Made by a program: the position numbers and the translations under genes. This document shows, one piece after another, positions 39,408-44,757 of a DNA stretch of 60,590 bases. The stretch comes from Gammaproteobacteria bacterium. Lineage in GTDB: Bacteria; Pseudomonadota; Gammaproteobacteria; JBNLBB01. Position 1 is the stretch's first letter, and each line of letters starts with the position of its first letter. The DNA lies in assembly GCA_050302415.1 (NCBI GenBank), contig JBNLBB010000001.1, positions 1 to 60,590 of the forward strand, read 5' to 3'. A model generated the notes under the pieces. The model saw nothing but the letters and a program-made list of their open reading frames with translations, was not told the DNA's origin and did not search any database.

Positions 39408-39514
39408 ACGGCGCCAATCCGGAAACTACTGGCTACACTTGTCAGCGTCCGGCAATCGTTATAGGTTTGCCGGCGAAAGTCGCGTGAACAATAAAATGCG
39501 AAAGGAACCAATAA

Positions 39515-41047
39515 ATGGGGATTTTTCGATCATCCTTGCTGCTGATCCTGGGCGTATCGCTCATCGGATGTGCCACCCAACGACAACTGGGTGACGAGAA
39601 GGCCGACCGGGATCCGCTGCTGAACCGGGTATTTGTCGGCTCTCACTTGACCGAAAGCATGGACGTTCGCCTGGAGGCGGAACCCGCGGGCACGCTGCGC
39701 AAGTTCGTCGACGGCGCCTGGCAGGACCAGCCGCCCGCCGCGGACGACAAACAGGTCGCCTGGACCGTCAAACTGTTTGATCCGCACAATGGCCGCCGCG
39801 TCCCCTACGCCGATGTATTCGTCGTGTTCCGCAAGGCCGACGGCACCATGCAGGAGATGGTCACCCTGGAGCCCATCTGGACGCGCGGCGGATTTGTCTA
39901 CGGCGCCAACGGTTCACTCCTGCCCGACGGAGCCTACACGGCGGAAATCAGCGTCAGCTCCCCGACCATGTATCGTGATCAGCAGACCGCTGCACTGTGG
40001 CAGACCTCCATCAATGCCAACGTCCCATTCACGCTGGACGACGGCCTGGTGGTGTCCGACCCCCAGAGCCGGTATGAGGATGTACCCTCGCTGGGCGAAG
40101 AGCCGACCATCGAATTTCAGGCAGCCGTTGGCAACACCGACGTGGATGGCCTGGGTATCGAACTGAGCCTCGAGTCGGCACAGGAAGTACGGTTCCTGTC
40201 CGGCAACACCTGGGCCTCCCGGCTTTCCGACGAAGGCTCGATGGCAGTCAATGTGCGCCTGACGGACCGCGTGCTGCAGAGTGACGAACTCCCCTACGCC
40301 ACAGTGCGGGTGGTGGCCACCACCGGAGCCGGCGGCCGGACAGAGCTCAATCTGAACCCCACCTGGAGCCGCGACGGTCTCTACTACAGCGCTCAGGCAG
40401 TCATACCGGAGGGCGACTACGAGTTCGCGGTTGAAGTCACACCGGACACCTTCACGCGGCGTGTTGAGTACTCCGACTATTTTCAGCAGACCGCCACCGC
40501 AGATTTCAGCTACAGCTACCATCTCTCCCCACCGGTACCCGACGAACTGGTGCGCACCTACTGGGTGGCAGTTGGCCTGTACCGCGTGCCGGAAAATGCG
40601 CAACGGATCGTCGACAGGCTTTCGACCACCCAATTCACGGTACAGCGCGACGAGTGGACCTTCAGTGGATTTCCGGTGTCGCGACTCCGGGTGGGTCCCT
40701 ACGATGACCGGGATTCGGCTGCCAGCGCCAAATCGGAACTTGAGGAGCTGCTGGGAATCCCGACCATGGTGCTGGGCGCCTGCCGCCAGGGCGACGAATC
40801 CTATGACGTCCGTTACGCCGTTCAGATCGGTGCATTCGGCATGGCCGAAAACGTCACCCGCGCGGAAGCCAAACTGGCGGATGCCGGTTACGCCACCTAT
40901 ACCGAATCCCATCCGAGCCTGAATCTCACCCAGGTACGGGTCGGACCCTACCACTACTCCAGCCAGGCGCGTGAAGCGAGTGTGGTACTGAACGAGTTGA
41001 TGGGCGTGAAATCGGTAGTCGTCGCCTTCTGCCGACCCTCCCCCTAA
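39515..41047 (+). CDS. Lipoprotein with two tandem Tp34/P19-like (FTP-like) domains and two C-terminal SPOR domains
   Basis: Lipobox LIGC. An internal duplication is visible (…VKLFDPHNGRRVPYADVFVVF…LEPIWTRGGFVYGAN…GAYTAEISVSSP and …VNVRLTD…LPYATVRVVA…LNPTWSRDGLYYSAQ…GDYEFAVEVTPD). Two SPOR repeats follow (YWVAVGLYR…RLRVGPY; YAVQIGAFG…QVRVGPY). Confidence 0.7.
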   Translation: MGIFRSSLLLILGVSLIGCATQRQLGDEKADRDPLLNRVFVGSHLTESMDVRLEAEPAGTLRKFVDGAWQDQPPAADDKQVAWTVKLFDPHNGRRVPYADVFVVFRKADGTMQEMVTLEPIWTRGGFVYGANGSLLPDGAYTAEISVSSPTMYRDQQTAALWQTSINANVPFTLDDGLVVSDPQSRYEDVPSLGEEPTIEFQAAVGNTDVDGLGIELSLESAQEVRFLSGNTWASRLSDEGSMAVNVRLTDRVLQSDELPYATVRVVATTGAGGRTELNLNPTWSRDGLYYSAQAVIPEGDYEFAVEVTPDTFTRRVEYSDYFQQTATADFSYSYHLSPPVPDELVRTYWVAVGLYRVPENAQRIVDRLSTTQFTVQRDEWTFSGFPVSRLRVGPYDDRDSAASAKSELEELLGIPTMVLGACRQGDESYDVRYAVQIGAFGMAENVTRAEAKLADAGYATYTESHPSLNLTQVRVGPYHYSSQAREASVVLNELMGVKSVVVAFCRPSP

Positions 41048-41057
41048 ACCTGCCGAA

Positions 41058-41086
41058 GGGTGGCAGCCCTGCGGCGGCTGCCACCC
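41058..41086 (+). other. Strong GC hairpin without a U-tract between the lipoprotein gene and the ABC-2 ATPase gene
   Basis: Perfect 11-bp stem GGGTGGCAGCC / GGCTGCCACCC with a 7-nt loop. The following sequence is acaccttcc. Confidence 0.5.
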
Positions 41087-41112: not shown

Positions 41113-42051
41113 ATGACCGAAGCCCTCCGTATTGAAGCGCTGCGCAAAACCTATCCCAACGGTTTCCATGCCCTGCACGGCATCAGCCTTGCCGTGGAGG
41201 AAGGGGATTTTTTTGCGCTGCTGGGACCTAACGGGGCCGGCAAATCCACAACCATCGGCATCATCAGTTCGCTGATCAACAAAACAGGCGGGTCGGTCAC
41301 CGTATTCGGTCACAACATCGACTCGGACCTGGAGGCAGCCAAGCGCTGTATCGGGCTGGTCCCACAGGAGTTCAACTTCAATATTTGGGAGCCGGTCGAG
41401 GAGATCCTCTGGAACCAGGCCGGTTACTACGGCATTCCCCCCAAACTCGGTCGGGCGCGTGCCGAACGCTATCTGCGCCAGCTGGGACTCTGGGACAAAC
41501 GCCGCGACGCCGCGCGCGAACTCTCAGGCGGCATGAAACGCAGACTGATGATTGCGCGCGCGCTGGTGCATCGACCGCGGCTGCTCATTCTGGATGAACC
41601 CACGGCGGGGGTGGATATTGAACTGCGCCGTTCGATGTGGGATTTCCTGCGGGAGATCAACCATGCAGGCACCACCATCATACTCACCACCCACTATCTG
41701 GAAGAGGCGGAAAATCTCTGCCGCACTATCGCCATCATCGACGAAGGCAATATTGTCGAACACTCCAACATGAAACGGCTGCTCGCCAAACTGCACACCG
41801 AGACCGTCATCCTCTACAGCCATGAAGTGATTGAATCCACACCCCAGGTCCCCGACTACCGGATCGACCAGGTGGACGAAACCACCCTGGAGGCGGAGAT
41901 CCGCGACCATCAGGGGATCAGCGATCTGCTCTGCGCTCTGGCCGAGTGTGGGATTCGCATCAAAAGCATGCGCAACAAGACCAACCGCCTCGAGGAGCTG
42001 TTTCTCCGCCTGGTGGACAAATCCGCACGCAACGCGGTGGGTAACTCATGA
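41113..42051 (+). CDS. ABC-2-type exporter ATP-binding protein (YadG-like)
   Basis: 312-aa ORF with Walker A GPNGAGKST, signature LSGGMKRR and Walker B LLILDEPT. It overlaps the permease gene by 4 nt. Confidence 0.85.
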   Translation: MTEALRIEALRKTYPNGFHALHGISLAVEEGDFFALLGPNGAGKSTTIGIISSLINKTGGSVTVFGHNIDSDLEAAKRCIGLVPQEFNFNIWEPVEEILWNQAGYYGIPPKLGRARAERYLRQLGLWDKRRDAARELSGGMKRRLMIARALVHRPRLLILDEPTAGVDIELRRSMWDFLREINHAGTTIILTTHYLEEAENLCRTIAIIDEGNIVEHSNMKRLLAKLHTETVILYSHEVIESTPQVPDYRIDQVDETTLEAEIRDHQGISDLLCALAECGIRIKSMRNKTNRLEELFLRLVDKSARNAVGNS

Positions 42052-42830
42052 CGGAACAGCTGGCTCACCCCTACTGGACCGCCTACCGGACCATTGTGAC
42101 CAAAGAGTTCCGGCGCTTCATCCGCATCTGGGTGCAGACTGTGCTGCCACCCGTCATCACCACCACCCTCTATTTCCTGATCTTCGGCAAGCTGATGGGT
42201 GAGCGGATCGGCACCATGGCCGGCACGCCCTATATGGACTACATCGTGCCGGGAGTGATCCTGATGGCCGTCATCAACAACTCCTACGCCAATGTGGTCT
42301 CGTCGGTATTCAGCGCCAAAATCCAGAAATACATTGAGGAACTGCTGGTGGCCCCCCTGCCCAACAGTCTGATCCTGCTCGGCTATGTCAGCGGCGGGGT
42401 GATGCGCGGATTGACTGTGGGTGTTGCGGTCAGCGCGGTGAGCCTCATATTCACCGATTTCCAGCTCACCCATCCGCTGGTGGCATTCGGAGTGGTGATA
42501 CTCACCTCCATGCTCTTTTCCATCGGCGGATTCATCAACGCCATCTTTGCGCGCACCTTTGACGACATTTCGCTGATCCCCACCTTCGTGCTGACTCCGC
42601 TGACCTATCTCGGGGGCATTTTCTACTCCATCGAACTGCTTCCCGAATTCTGGCAGACCGCGTCGCTCGCCAATCCGATCCTCTACATGATCAACGCCTT
42701 CCGCTACGGGGTGCTGGGCGTGGCCGACATCCAGCCACTGACCGCGTTTGCGTTGATCCTGCTGTTTCTGGGCTCACTGTTTCTGTTCGCACTCTATCTA
42801 CTGAACCGGGGTATCGGTATTCGAACCTGA
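42048..42830 (+). CDS. ABC-2-type exporter permease (YadH-like)
   Basis: 260-aa six-TM ORF of ABC-2 membrane type, translationally coupled to the ATPase. Confidence 0.8.
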   Translation: MTEQLAHPYWTAYRTIVTKEFRRFIRIWVQTVLPPVITTTLYFLIFGKLMGERIGTMAGTPYMDYIVPGVILMAVINNSYANVVSSVFSAKIQKYIEELLVAPLPNSLILLGYVSGGVMRGLTVGVAVSAVSLIFTDFQLTHPLVAFGVVILTSMLFSIGGFINAIFARTFDDISLIPTFVLTPLTYLGGIFYSIELLPEFWQTASLANPILYMINAFRYGVLGVADIQPLTAFALILLFLGSLFLFALYLLNRGIGIRT

Positions 42831-44019: not shown

Positions 44020-44757
44020 ATGGACAGCAATCTCTTCTGGTTCCTCACCTCCATCGCCCTGGGTACCTACATTCAGACCACCAGCGGATTTGCGCTCGGT
44101 CTGATTGTCATGGGTGCGGTCAACCTGTTCCACCTGGTTTCGGTCGGCGAGGCCGCCATCGTCATCAGCACCGTGGCCCTGATCAACAATGTGCTGGCAC
44201 TTCGCCACCGGACTCACTTCATTGACAGGCGGCTGCTCTGGCTGCTTGGGGCGGCACTGACACCTGCCATTGTGGCGGGTGTCTGGTTGCTCGGGTACCT
44301 CACTGACCATCACGCGACGTCCATTCGCCAGGTGCTGGGTTGGTTTATTTTGATCGGCGGTGGTTTACTGATCCTCAATCCATCGCCACGCAGATCACCG
44401 GCCGGTGCAGGAACGGGACTGCTTGCCGGGGCGCTCTGCGGTCTGTTTGGCGGCCTGTTCAGCACCGGGGGACCACCAGTGGTCTACCATCTCTACCGCG
44501 AACCACTCTCCATCGACCAGATACGCGCCACACTCTTCGCCGTATTCATGCTCAGCACCGTGGTCAGAACCGTGGTGGTCGGCGTGGACGGCCAGATCGA
44601 TACGTCGGTGGCCCTGCTCTGCCTCTACAGTCTGCCCGTGGTGTTTATAACCACGCTGCTGGCCCAGCGCTGGCACCCGCCACTCTCCGACCGCGCCTAC
44701 CGGCGCGCGGCGTATGTGTTGCTCGTGCTGCTCAGCCTGCCGCTGATTCTTGGATAG
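44020..44757 (+). CDS. TauE/SafE-family (DUF81) anion exporter
   Basis: 245-aa, roughly 7-8 TM ORF with TauE-like N-terminal (GTYIQTTSGFALGLI) and internal-repeat (GLFGGLFSTGGPP) motifs. Confidence 0.75.
   Translation: MDSNLFWFLTSIALGTYIQTTSGFALGLIVMGAVNLFHLVSVGEAAIVISTVALINNVLALRHRTHFIDRRLLWLLGAALTPAIVAGVWLLGYLTDHHATSIRQVLGWFILIGGGLLILNPSPRRSPAGAGTGLLAGALCGLFGGLFSTGGPPVVYHLYREPLSIDQIRATLFAVFMLSTVVRTVVVGVDGQIDTSVALLCLYSLPVVFITTLLAQRWHPPLSDRAYRRAAYVLLVLLSLPLILG

What the first reader, a model, noticed from the sequence alone, without database searches (positions are those of the whole stretch)
39515..41047. Lipoprotein combining two degenerate Tp34/P19-like domains with two SPOR domains
My inspection shows an internal duplication in the N-terminal 330 aa. 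Both copies follow the pattern hxLEA/S ... VxVxLxD ... PYAxVxVV ... LxPxW(T/S)RxGxxY ... G(A/D)Y...V(S/T)P. This resembles the periplasmic Fe/Cu-binding FTP / Tp34 / P19 / FetP beta-sandwich. However, the positions where I would expect His/Met ligands (the HYG-type motif) are VYG and YYS instead. The C-terminal 160 aa are two SPOR repeats, which target septal peptidoglycan. A metal-site-less FTP tandem tethered to the division septum is an architecture I have not seen described.
Basis: partly seen in the sequence, partly recalled or inferred. Interest (0 to 1): 0.6.

Follow-up and report, generated by a model that had tools for sequence, protein, structure and literature searches.

The report
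Metal-site-less FTP pair on a SPOR lipoprotein
This gene encodes a very rare outer-membrane-type lipoprotein that joins two copies of an iron/copper-carrier fold, both without their metal-binding residues, to two cell-wall-binding SPOR domains; it is a real new domain combination, but its function can only be inferred.

Summary
Window 39515-41047 (+) is an intact 510-aa ORF with an RBS and a lipobox (LIGC, Cys19).

- **N-terminal domains.** Residues 39-178 and 202-336 are an internal duplication (BLASTP E 2e-11). They belong to the FTP/P19/Tp34 superfamily: PF10634 scores 27.7 bits (cut-off 21). A family profile hits FetP and FtrA at about 1e-12, P19 at 2e-6 and Tp34 at 1e-4. Foldseek on an AlphaFold model (pLDDT 85.6) puts FetP, P19, FtrA and Tp34 on top (TM 0.64-0.73).
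- **Metal sites.** All copper ligands and all but one iron-site residue of P19 are replaced in both copies (A82/I121/V128/D155 and A244/T283/Y290/R316). No FTR1 permease was found in the 74%-complete genome.
- **SPOR domains.** Residues 346-425 and 428-506 are two SPOR domains (76 bits).
- **Rarity.** Only 4 proteins among 1.84 billion representatives combine these parts. Two of them come from this genome.
- **Context of relatives.** The paralog and one metagenomic relative are encoded beside c-type or multihaem cytochromes, and the paralog also beside an MtrAB/PioAB-type conduit.

My best reading is a lipid-anchored, peptidoglycan-bound adaptor whose rigid FTP pair (pTM 0.89) no longer carries metal. 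The function is inferred, not shown. The scan had not noted this architecture on other DNA.

The parts
39502..39506 (+). Shine-Dalgarno-like AAGGA, 8 nt before the ATG
   Evidence: Read directly from the sequence.
39515..39571 (+). Lipoprotein signal peptide, residues 1-19, with lipobox L16-I-G-C19; +2 residue is Ala
   Evidence: Translation. These residues have pLDDT below 50 in the model. Sorting to the outer membrane is inferred from the E. coli +2 rule.
39572..39628 (+). Tether, residues 20-38
   Evidence: Residues 5-28 have pLDDT below 50; confidence rises from about residue 30.
39629..40048 (+). FTP-like beta-sandwich 1 (residues 39-178). P19 ligand positions are A82, T84, K86, I121, G125, V128, D155
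   Evidence: PF10634 27.7 bits against a cut-off of 21; pLDDT above 90; ligand map.
40049..40117 (+). Inter-domain segment (residues 179-201)
   Evidence: pLDDT 66-74 in the full-length model, but 91-96 when the tandem is modelled alone.
40118..40522 (+). FTP-like beta-sandwich 2 (residues 202-336). P19 ligand positions are A244, N246, R248, T283, D287, Y290, R316
   Evidence: Homologous to copy 1 (E 2e-11). Same order of strands and the same short helix in the model. Pfam alone does not detect it.
40523..40549 (+). Pro-rich linker (residues 337-345, SPPVPDELV)
   Evidence: pLDDT below 50 at 339-345.
40550..40789 (+). SPOR domain 1 (residues 346-425). Ala352 stands where SPOR2 and DedD have the beta1 Gln; Cys423 lies in the last strand
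   Evidence: PF05036 best stretch 348-410; genome scan 40556-40750, 42.5 bits; secondary structure.
40796..41032 (+). SPOR domain 2 (residues 428-506), canonical YAVQIGAF with Gln437; Cys506 lies in the last strand
   Evidence: Genome scan 40811-41023, 41.3 bits. Aligns to the DedD SPOR 6ZTG at residues 433-505.
41058..41086 (+). 11-bp perfect GC hairpin after the stop codon, without a T-run
   Evidence: Read from the sequence. The terminator scan does not call it. Its role was not tested.

Best explanation
**What it is.** The gene encodes a periplasmic lipoprotein, most likely anchored in the inner leaflet of the outer membrane. It bridges the membrane and the cell wall.

**How it most likely works.**
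- The C-terminal tandem SPOR module binds peptidoglycan glycan strands that have lost their peptides. Such strands are concentrated at the division septum. SPOR2 is canonical; SPOR1 lacks the key Gln.
- The N-terminal half is a rigid, intramolecular pair of FTP (P19/FetP/Tp34-type) beta-sandwiches.
- This pair descends from tandem Cu/Fe-binding FTP lipoproteins but has lost the copper and iron sites in both copies.
- It therefore probably acts as a protein-binding adaptor or spacer held between outer membrane and wall, not as a metal carrier for an FTR1 permease.

**Shown:** the ORF, the lipobox, the duplication, FTP homology and fold, replacement of the ligands, the two SPOR domains, and the rarity.

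**Inferred:** outer-membrane sorting, binding of denuded glycans, septal location, and the adaptor role.
For: - **Architecture.**
- **FTP homology.**
- **Ligand replacement.** All seven P19 positions were mapped. The P19 residues come from PMC9174327 and from the names of the PDB variants M88I, E44Q and D92H.
- **Few metal-binding residue types.** Residues 20-345 hold 3 His, 5 Met and no Cys. Ligand-keeping tandem relatives have 2.5-6.9% His and up to 8.3% Met.
- **Fast evolution.** SPOR-bearing domains sit on long branches (1.4-4.4 substitutions per column against a median of 0.56). This fits loss of the old constraint.
- **No permease partner.** No FTR1 (PF03239) was found in the genome.
- **Rigid pair.** The tandem modelled alone gives pLDDT 93.2 and pTM 0.89.
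- **SPOR2.** It aligns with the solved DedD SPOR, including the VQxGA strand. The equivalent FtsN Gln251 is needed for septal localisation (PMC6895207).
- **Likely disulfide.** Cys423 and Cys506 are invariant in all four family members, even in the one-SPOR paralog. This fits a periplasmic disulfide.
Against: - No experiment bears on this protein, and no close relative has been studied.
- Only four sequences exist, so surface conservation cannot point to a binding site.
- SPOR1 has Ala352 in place of the Gln needed for septal targeting in FtsN. The paralog's only SPOR has Val there. Glycan binding may therefore be weaker or different.
- Two of the three informative gene contexts point to cytochromes rather than to division or wall genes.
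- The +2 sorting rule comes from E. coli and may not hold in this lineage.
- I could not inspect model coordinates, so I did not test whether the tandem resembles the P19 homodimer.
Confidence: 0.45

Rival explanations
1. It is an accessory part of a periplasmic electron-transfer system. The FTP pair would dock c-type or multihaem cytochromes, or a porin-cytochrome conduit of the MtrAB/PioAB/MtoAB type. The SPOR module would fix that machinery to the peptidoglycan layer rather than mark the septum.
For: **Paralog P0015** (25-26% identity, same genome):
- It sits 67 nt upstream of a di-haem cytochrome c on the same strand.
- It is divergent, 228 nt away, from a cluster of an EB_dh haem protein, a DmsE/MtrA-family decahaem (TIGR03508, 275.8 bits against a cut-off of 192) and an MtrB/PioB porin (1e-102).
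- The genome has only two MtrB/PioB loci.

**Relative P0014:** it is the first gene of a tight operon (gaps of 10, -14 and 8 nt) that includes a 7-haem Paired_CXXCH cytochrome.

**Parent family:** two members are fused to cytochrome c domains (P0048, P0050).
Against: - The window's own gene has no cytochrome neighbour. It lies between yejABEF and an ABC-2 exporter.
- No Paired_CXXCH or MtrB match lies on this contig.
- Only three contexts exist, and they may share ancestry, so they are not independent.
- There is no evidence of contact between these proteins.
Confidence: 0.2
2. It is still a periplasmic metal-binding protein (Fe, Cu or another ion). It would use non-canonical ligands, for example carboxylates at the interface of the two FTP copies, and be parked on the wall by SPOR.
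For: The N-terminal half is acidic (8.6% Asp, 6.7% Glu). D287 keeps the P19 Asp92 position in copy 2, and D155 stands at the His132 position in copy 1. The fold and the tandem packing are well kept.
Against: - None of the four Cu ligands survives, and only one of six mapped Fe-site positions does (Glu3 was not mapped).
- The replaced positions are not conserved among the four family members.
- His, Met and Cys are scarce.
- No FTR1 partner was found.
Confidence: 0.1
3. It is the periplasmic or outer-membrane partner of one of the flanking transporters: the ABC-2 exporter downstream (41113-42830) or YejABEF upstream.
For: All three units are on the same strand, with gaps of 107 nt and 65 nt. 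No sigma-70-like promoter and no T-run terminator is called around the gene. The same order is seen in a second assembly.
Against: - An 11-bp GC hairpin follows the stop codon.
- The paralog and P0014 have no ABC genes nearby.
- The second assembly carries an identical protein, so it is not an independent test of synteny.
Confidence: 0.08
4. It is an evolutionary relic: a duplicated FTP lipoprotein that lost its metal sites and has no remaining selected function.
For: The branches are long, all ligands are lost, and the distribution is extremely narrow.
Against: - The 510-codon frame is intact and has an RBS.
- The fold is predicted with very high confidence.
- Fold-defining residues and two Cys are invariant across members that share only 22-25% identity.
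- The same architecture is kept in at least three separate sources: this genome, JQIA01 and SRR22388036.
Confidence: 0.05

Closest known systems
FTP family of periplasmic Cu/Fe proteins: P19 (C. jejuni, 3LZL), FetP (E. coli F11, 3NRP), FtrA (Brucella 8VV5, Rubrivivax 7R3P), Tp34 (T. pallidum, 2O6C), HftA (T. denticola, 8T7K); Pfam PF10634
   Same: It has the same beta-sandwich fold (Foldseek probability 1.0, TM 0.64-0.73) and detectable sequence homology. Like Tp34, it is a lipoprotein.
   Different: - Two copies lie in one chain instead of forming a homodimer.
- Every Cu ligand and all but one mapped Fe-site residue is replaced.
- No FTR1 permease gene is adjacent or was found in the genome.
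- It is fused to SPOR domains.
Tandem FTP lipoproteins with intact sites (unnamed metagenomic family, best hit P0002, 343 aa; motif YHVEVK...PMWGGSGLHYG)
   Same: P0002 is the closest relative of the N-terminal half (E 2.7e-43, 29% identity over both copies). It also has a lipobox and a tandem arrangement.
   Different: P0002 and most of the family keep the equivalents of His42, Glu44, Met88 and His95 (16 of 25 domains). Members have Met-rich loops or His-rich tails, and some are fused to FTR1. None of these has SPOR.
RlpA (rare lipoprotein A), the outer-membrane SPOR lipoprotein of E. coli and P. aeruginosa
   Same: It has the same overall logic: lipid anchor, then an N-terminal functional module, then a C-terminal SPOR that binds denuded glycans (PMC6895207).
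   Different: It has no DPBB lytic-transglycosylase domain. The RlpA model scores 18 bits against a cut-off of 201 and matches only the SPOR part. This protein has two SPOR domains; RlpA has one.
DedD, DamX and FtsN (inner-membrane SPOR division proteins)
   Same: SPOR2 aligns to the DedD SPOR 6ZTG (E 0.003; NF008641 27 bits).
   Different: Those proteins are bitopic inner-membrane proteins with an N-terminal helix and no FTP domains. The scores here are far below the family cut-off (27 against 150 bits).

Membership tests
FTP / P19 / Tp34 (PF10634) | Profile match above Pfam's gathering score | tested here: met
   The whole protein scores 27.7 bits against a cut-off of 21, with residues 92-152 on profile positions 60-120. 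Copy 1 alone scores 23.9 bits. Copy 2 alone is not detected but is homologous to copy 1 (E 2e-11).
FTP / P19 / Tp34 (PF10634) | P19-type beta-sandwich fold | tested here: met
   AlphaFold models have pLDDT 85.6 and 93.2. The top Foldseek PDB hits are FetP, P19, FtrA, Tp34 and HftA, with probability 1.0 and TM (target) 0.64-0.73.
FTP / P19 / Tp34 (PF10634) | Copper site His42 / Met88 / His95 / His132' (P19 numbering) | tested here: not met
   Copy 1 has A82/I121/V128/D155 and copy 2 has A244/T283/Y290/R316. Met88 is confirmed by a PDB variant name. The three His numbers come from my knowledge of Chan et al. 2010. They fit the HLEAD and PMxxxDGPHYG alignment.
FTP / P19 / Tp34 (PF10634) | Acidic Fe/Mn site Glu3, Glu44, Asp46, Asp92 (PMC9174327) | tested here: not met
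   Copy 1 has T84/K86/G125 and copy 2 has N246/R248/D287. Only D287 is kept. The Glu3 equivalent was not mapped.
FTP / P19 / Tp34 (PF10634) | Works with an FTR1/EfeU-type permease, usually encoded next to it | tested here: not met
   There is no PF03239 match in the genome, with the caveat that the genome is 73.7% complete. The neighbours are yejABEF and an ABC-2 exporter.
FTP / P19 / Tp34 (PF10634) | Homodimer with sites completed across the interface | not testable with these tools
   The tandem is predicted as one rigid unit (pTM 0.89). Model coordinates could not be compared with the P19 dimer.
SPOR domain (PF05036) | Profile match above the gathering score | tested here: met
   76.3 bits against a cut-off of 21, in two stretches. 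In the genome scan the two score 42.5 and 41.3 bits separately.
SPOR domain (PF05036) | Beta-alpha-beta-beta-alpha-beta fold | tested here: met
   The model shows E346-356, H359-369, E376-383, E386-396, H399-413, E418-425. The same order repeats at 428-506.
SPOR domain (PF05036) | Beta-sheet residues needed for septal targeting (FtsN Q251, S254, W283, R285, I313; PMC6895207) | tested here: inconclusive
   SPOR2 keeps the Gln (Q437 in YAVQIGAF, aligned to the DedD VVQLGA). SPOR1 has Ala352 there. The Arg in the RVGP strand is present in both, by eye. The other positions were not mapped rigorously.
SPOR domain (PF05036) | Binds denuded glycan strands and localises to the septum | not testable with these tools
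   This needs sacculus pull-down and fluorescent fusions.
Bacterial lipoprotein | Signal peptide ending in the lipobox [LVI][ASTVI][GAS]C | tested here: met
   The N-terminus reads MGIFRSSLLLILGVSLIG-C19.
RlpA | DPBB lytic-transglycosylase domain | tested here: not met
   No DPBB hit appears in Pfam. NF007953 scores 18.2 bits against a cut-off of 201, on the SPOR part only.
YtkA-like (PF13115) | Profile match above the gathering score | tested here: not met
   14.5 to 16.2 bits against a cut-off of 25.9.

The most novel reading that the evidence does not exclude
FTP-SPOR lipoproteins could be a previously unrecognised, wall-anchored accessory of porin-cytochrome electron conduits (MtrAB/PioAB/MtoAB type) and other periplasmic cytochrome systems. 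A de-metallated iron-carrier fold would be re-used as a docking module, and SPOR would fix or guide the conduit through peptide-free patches of peptidoglycan. The window's copy would be a relocated paralog of that module.
Probability: 0.15. Interest if true: 0.7.

Novelty: new variant of a known kind. Interest (0 to 1): 0.4.

Why it matters
- **FTP fold without metal.** FTP proteins (P19, FetP, FtrA, Tp34) are studied only as Cu/Fe carriers for FTR1 permeases. This case shows the fold surviving complete loss of both metal sites, fused in tandem and joined to a wall-binding module. The fold therefore has a second, non-metal use.
- **New SPOR cargo.** For SPOR biology it adds a cargo type on a lipoprotein. 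RlpA is the best-known SPOR lipoprotein, which gives a ready comparison.
- **Possible link to cytochromes.** Two relatives lie beside multihaem cytochromes or a porin-cytochrome conduit. If that link is real, it would connect cell-wall architecture to periplasmic electron transfer, a link I am not aware of.
- **Limit on impact.** The family is tiny: four sequences, two from one metagenome-assembled genome of a lineage whose nearest held relatives share only the class. General importance is therefore limited until more members or experiments appear.

Tried and rejected
- **Word-index homologue searches.** Searches with P0001, with the four-member alignment and with P0014 each returned only the query, so they gave no names and no extra members.
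- **The search for related loci.** It failed on alignments A4 and A3 because no stretch was conserved enough. With P0001 in genome contigs it found no relative.
- **Genome searches.** 40 relatives and 400 genomes of the same class yielded no second FTP-SPOR protein. They yielded only single or tandem FTP-like ORFs without SPOR, for example the 407-aa ORF in G107.
- **Domain tree.** It could not resolve whether the SPOR-bearing domains form one clade. Long branches dominate and only 6 of 40 branches are well supported. One origin is neither shown nor excluded.
- **YtkA-like, RlpA and DedD membership.** Considered and rejected on score.
- **Segmental duplication of a TauE neighbourhood.** Considered because both paralogs lie near TauE genes. 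The two TauE proteins are only 27% alike over 102 residues, so a recent duplication is rejected. The co-occurrence remains unexplained.
- **Literature.** Searches for the domain combination found nothing relevant.
Full report
**1. The gene**

- Window 39515-41047 (+) is an intact ORF of 510 codons.
- AAGGA lies 8 nt before the ATG.
- G+C content (0.62) matches that of the neighbours.
- The N-terminus MGIFRSSLLLILGVSLIG-C19 is a lipoprotein signal peptide with a canonical lipobox. The +2 residue is Ala, which by the E. coli rule means sorting to the outer membrane; that step is inferred.
- The gene lies 107 nt after yejF (YejF equivalog model, 754 bits).
- It lies 65 nt before an ABC-2 exporter pair (the permease scores 391 bits on NF011648).
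- An 11-bp perfect GC hairpin without a T-run follows the stop codon.
- The simple scans call no promoter and no terminator here.

**2. The internal duplication and its family**

*The duplication.* Residues ~40-190 and ~200-340 align at E 2e-11 with 26% identity.

*Pfam.*
- PF10634 (Iron_transport; the P19/Tp34/FetP family) scores 27.7 bits against a cut-off of 21 on copy 1.
- YtkA is sub-threshold (14.5 against 25.9 bits).
- Copy 2 is not detected by Pfam alone.

*Exhaustive search.* A phmmer search of residues 30-345 against 1.84 billion representative proteins found only 53 proteins at E <= 1e-3.
- 47 of them hit PF10634.
- 2 are fused to FTR1 permeases.
- 1 carries cytochrome c Pfam domains; two have CxxCH motifs (P0048, P0050).
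- 4 carry SPOR.

*Comparison with solved structures.* A profile of 25 domain copies (A3) hits:
- FetP 3NRP (6e-13)
- FtrA 8VV5 (9e-13)
- P19 3LZL (2e-6)
- FtrA-P19 of Rubrivivax (about 5e-5)
- Tp34 2O6C (1e-4)
- HftA 8T7K (1e-4)

*Structure prediction.*
- The full-length AlphaFold model has pLDDT 85.6 and pTM 0.66.
- The tandem modelled alone has pLDDT 93.2 and pTM 0.89.
- Foldseek against the PDB returns FetP, P19, FtrA, Tp34 and HftA on top, with probability 1.0 and TM (target) 0.64-0.73.

The FTP assignment is therefore supported by sequence profile, by homologues and by fold.

**3. The metal sites**

In the HMMER alignments, the family consensus ..hlevk.. and ..pmwggsGlhYg.. lines up with HLEAD and PMVANDGPHYG of FtrA and FetP. 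That corresponds to P19 His42, Glu44, Asp46 and Met88, Asp92, His95.

- Met88, Glu44 and Asp92 are confirmed by the names of the deposited variants.
- The acidic site is described in PMC9174327.
- The His numbers come from my knowledge of Chan et al. 2010.

In 16 of 25 domain copies of the family, the His, Met and His are kept. The window's two copies differ at every copper-ligand position:

| P19 position | His42 | Glu44 | Asp46 | Met88 | Asp92 | His95 | His132 |
|---|---|---|---|---|---|---|---|
| Copy 1 | A82 | T84 | K86 | I121 | G125 | V128 | D155 |
| Copy 2 | A244 | N246 | R248 | T283 | D287 | Y290 | R316 |

The other three SPOR-bearing proteins are also degenerate at most of these positions, and the replacements differ between them. 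No alternative site is conserved.

Three further observations point the same way:
- Residues 20-345 hold only 3 His, 5 Met and no Cys. Ligand-keeping tandem relatives have 2.5-6.9% His and up to 8.3% Met.
- In a domain tree the SPOR-bearing copies sit on long branches (1.4-4.4 against a median of 0.56 substitutions per column). This fits relaxed constraint after loss of the site.
- No FTR1 permease was found in the genome, which is 73.7% complete.

**4. The SPOR module**

- PF05036 scores 76.3 bits in two stretches. The genome scan gives 42.5 and 41.3 bits for the two separately.
- The model shows two beta-alpha-beta-beta-alpha-beta units at 346-425 and 428-506.
- SPOR2 aligns to the solved DedD SPOR (6ZTG), including VQxGA. 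Its Gln437 corresponds to FtsN Gln251, one of five residues needed for septal localisation (PMC6895207).
- SPOR1 has Ala352 at that position.
- Cys423 and Cys506 are invariant in all four family members. A Cys pair (C415 and C423) is kept even in the one-SPOR paralog. A periplasmic disulfide is likely; this is inferred.

**5. Rarity and relatives**

- Only four proteins combine the FTP pair with SPOR:
  - P0001, this gene.
  - P0015, a 424-aa paralog on contig C41 of the same genome, with one SPOR.
  - P0003, 528 aa, on an NCBI/JGI metagenome contig of 2.3 kb.
  - P0014, 489 aa, on a 5-kb contig from SRR22388036.
- Each is a singleton cluster at 90% identity.
- A second assembly (GCA_050303955.1) carries an identical P0001 in the same gene order.
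- The genome is a 2.99-Mb assembly in 347 contigs. Its nearest held relatives share only the class.
- No FTP-SPOR protein was found in 40 relatives or in 400 genomes of that class.
- The closest relative of the N-terminal half is P0002 (E 2.7e-43). It is a 343-aa tandem FTP lipoprotein with intact ligands and no SPOR.
- The likely history is a tandem metal-binding FTP lipoprotein that then gained SPOR and lost its sites. The order of those two events is not resolved.

**6. Context of the relatives**

*Paralog P0015*:
- It is followed on the same strand by a di-haem cytochrome c (gap 67 nt) and a TauE gene.
- It is divergent, 228 nt away, from three genes:
  - an EB_dh haem-domain protein
  - a DmsE/MtrA-family decahaem cytochrome (TIGR03508, 275.8 bits against a cut-off of 192)
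  - an MtrB/PioB porin (1e-102)
- The genome has only two MtrB/PioB loci and five ORFs with Paired_CXXCH.

*Relative P0014*:
- It heads a tight operon with two small membrane proteins and a 7-haem cytochrome.

*The window's own copy:*
- It has no cytochrome neighbour.
- A TauE-like gene lies 3 kb downstream, so two of the genome's four TauE genes sit near the two paralogs.
- The two TauE proteins are only distantly related.

**7. Reading**

*Architecture.* This part is secure: lipid anchor, about 19-residue tether, rigid pair of metal-site-less FTP sandwiches, short Pro-rich linker, then two SPOR domains.

*Most likely mechanism.* The protein is an envelope adaptor. It would be tied to the outer membrane by its lipid and to peptide-free glycan strands, enriched at septa, by SPOR. 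The FTP pair would serve as a binding or spacing module (confidence 0.45).

*Main rival.* The contexts of two relatives suggest that the family docks periplasmic cytochromes or porin-cytochrome conduits to the wall (0.2).

*Less likely readings.*
- Residual non-canonical metal binding (0.1).
- Partnership with a flanking ABC system (0.08).
- A functionless relic (0.05).

**8. Verdict**

- The septal location remains an inference from the SPOR family.
- This is a new variant of known kinds: a new architecture with a degenerate domain. It is very rare and its function is untested.
- The scan had not recorded this architecture on other DNA.

Noticed in passing
G000 contig C41 = L019:3472-8123 (+); second locus G000:C112:6520-8364: A porin-cytochrome conduit lies here: an EB_dh haem-domain protein, a DmsE/MtrA-family decahaem cytochrome and an MtrB/PioB outer-membrane porin. 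A second MtrB/PioB locus lies on C112. In a genome that also has fccAB and FisR, this suggests Fe(II) oxidation or extracellular electron transfer alongside sulfur oxidation.
   Followed up: partly
window 44020-44757 (+) and L019:252-1040 (-): Both FTP-SPOR paralogs lie within about 3 kb of a TauE/SafE-family gene, although the genome has only four such genes. The two TauE proteins are only 27% alike over 102 residues. This is not a recent segmental duplication, and the co-occurrence is unexplained.
   Followed up: partly
proteins P0002-P0053 (metagenomic; no window coordinates): The parent family is a divergent branch of PF10634 that appears undescribed. Its motif is YHVEVK...PMWGGSGLHYG.N...P.FAR.
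- It keeps three of the four P19 copper ligands but not His132.
- Members are often tandem, often lipoproteins, and often have Met-rich loops or His-rich tails.
- Two members are fused to FTR1 permeases (P0026, P0029) and two to cytochrome c domains (P0048, P0050).
   Followed up: partly
L017:1698-3536 (contig from SRR22388036): P0014 is followed by two roughly 180-aa membrane proteins without any Pfam match. They bracket a 7-haem cytochrome in a tight operon. A GGDEF protein is encoded on the other strand.
   Followed up: no
window 41058-41086: An 11-bp perfect GC hairpin (GGGTGGCAGCC, 7-nt loop, GGCTGCCACCC) sits between the lipoprotein gene and the ABC-2 ATPase gene. It has no T-run and the terminator scan does not call it.
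   Followed up: partly
L006:700-1923 (G107, same class): A 407-aa tandem FTP-like lipoprotein without SPOR is followed by a 303-aa ORF (1841-2752) whose identity I did not check. This is another tandem FTP arrangement in the class.
   Followed up: no
window residues C423 and C506 (40781-40783, 41030-41032): One Cys at the end of SPOR1 and one at the C-terminus are invariant in all four family members. The paralog lacks SPOR2 yet keeps the pair 8 residues apart. A conserved disulfide is likely.
   Followed up: no
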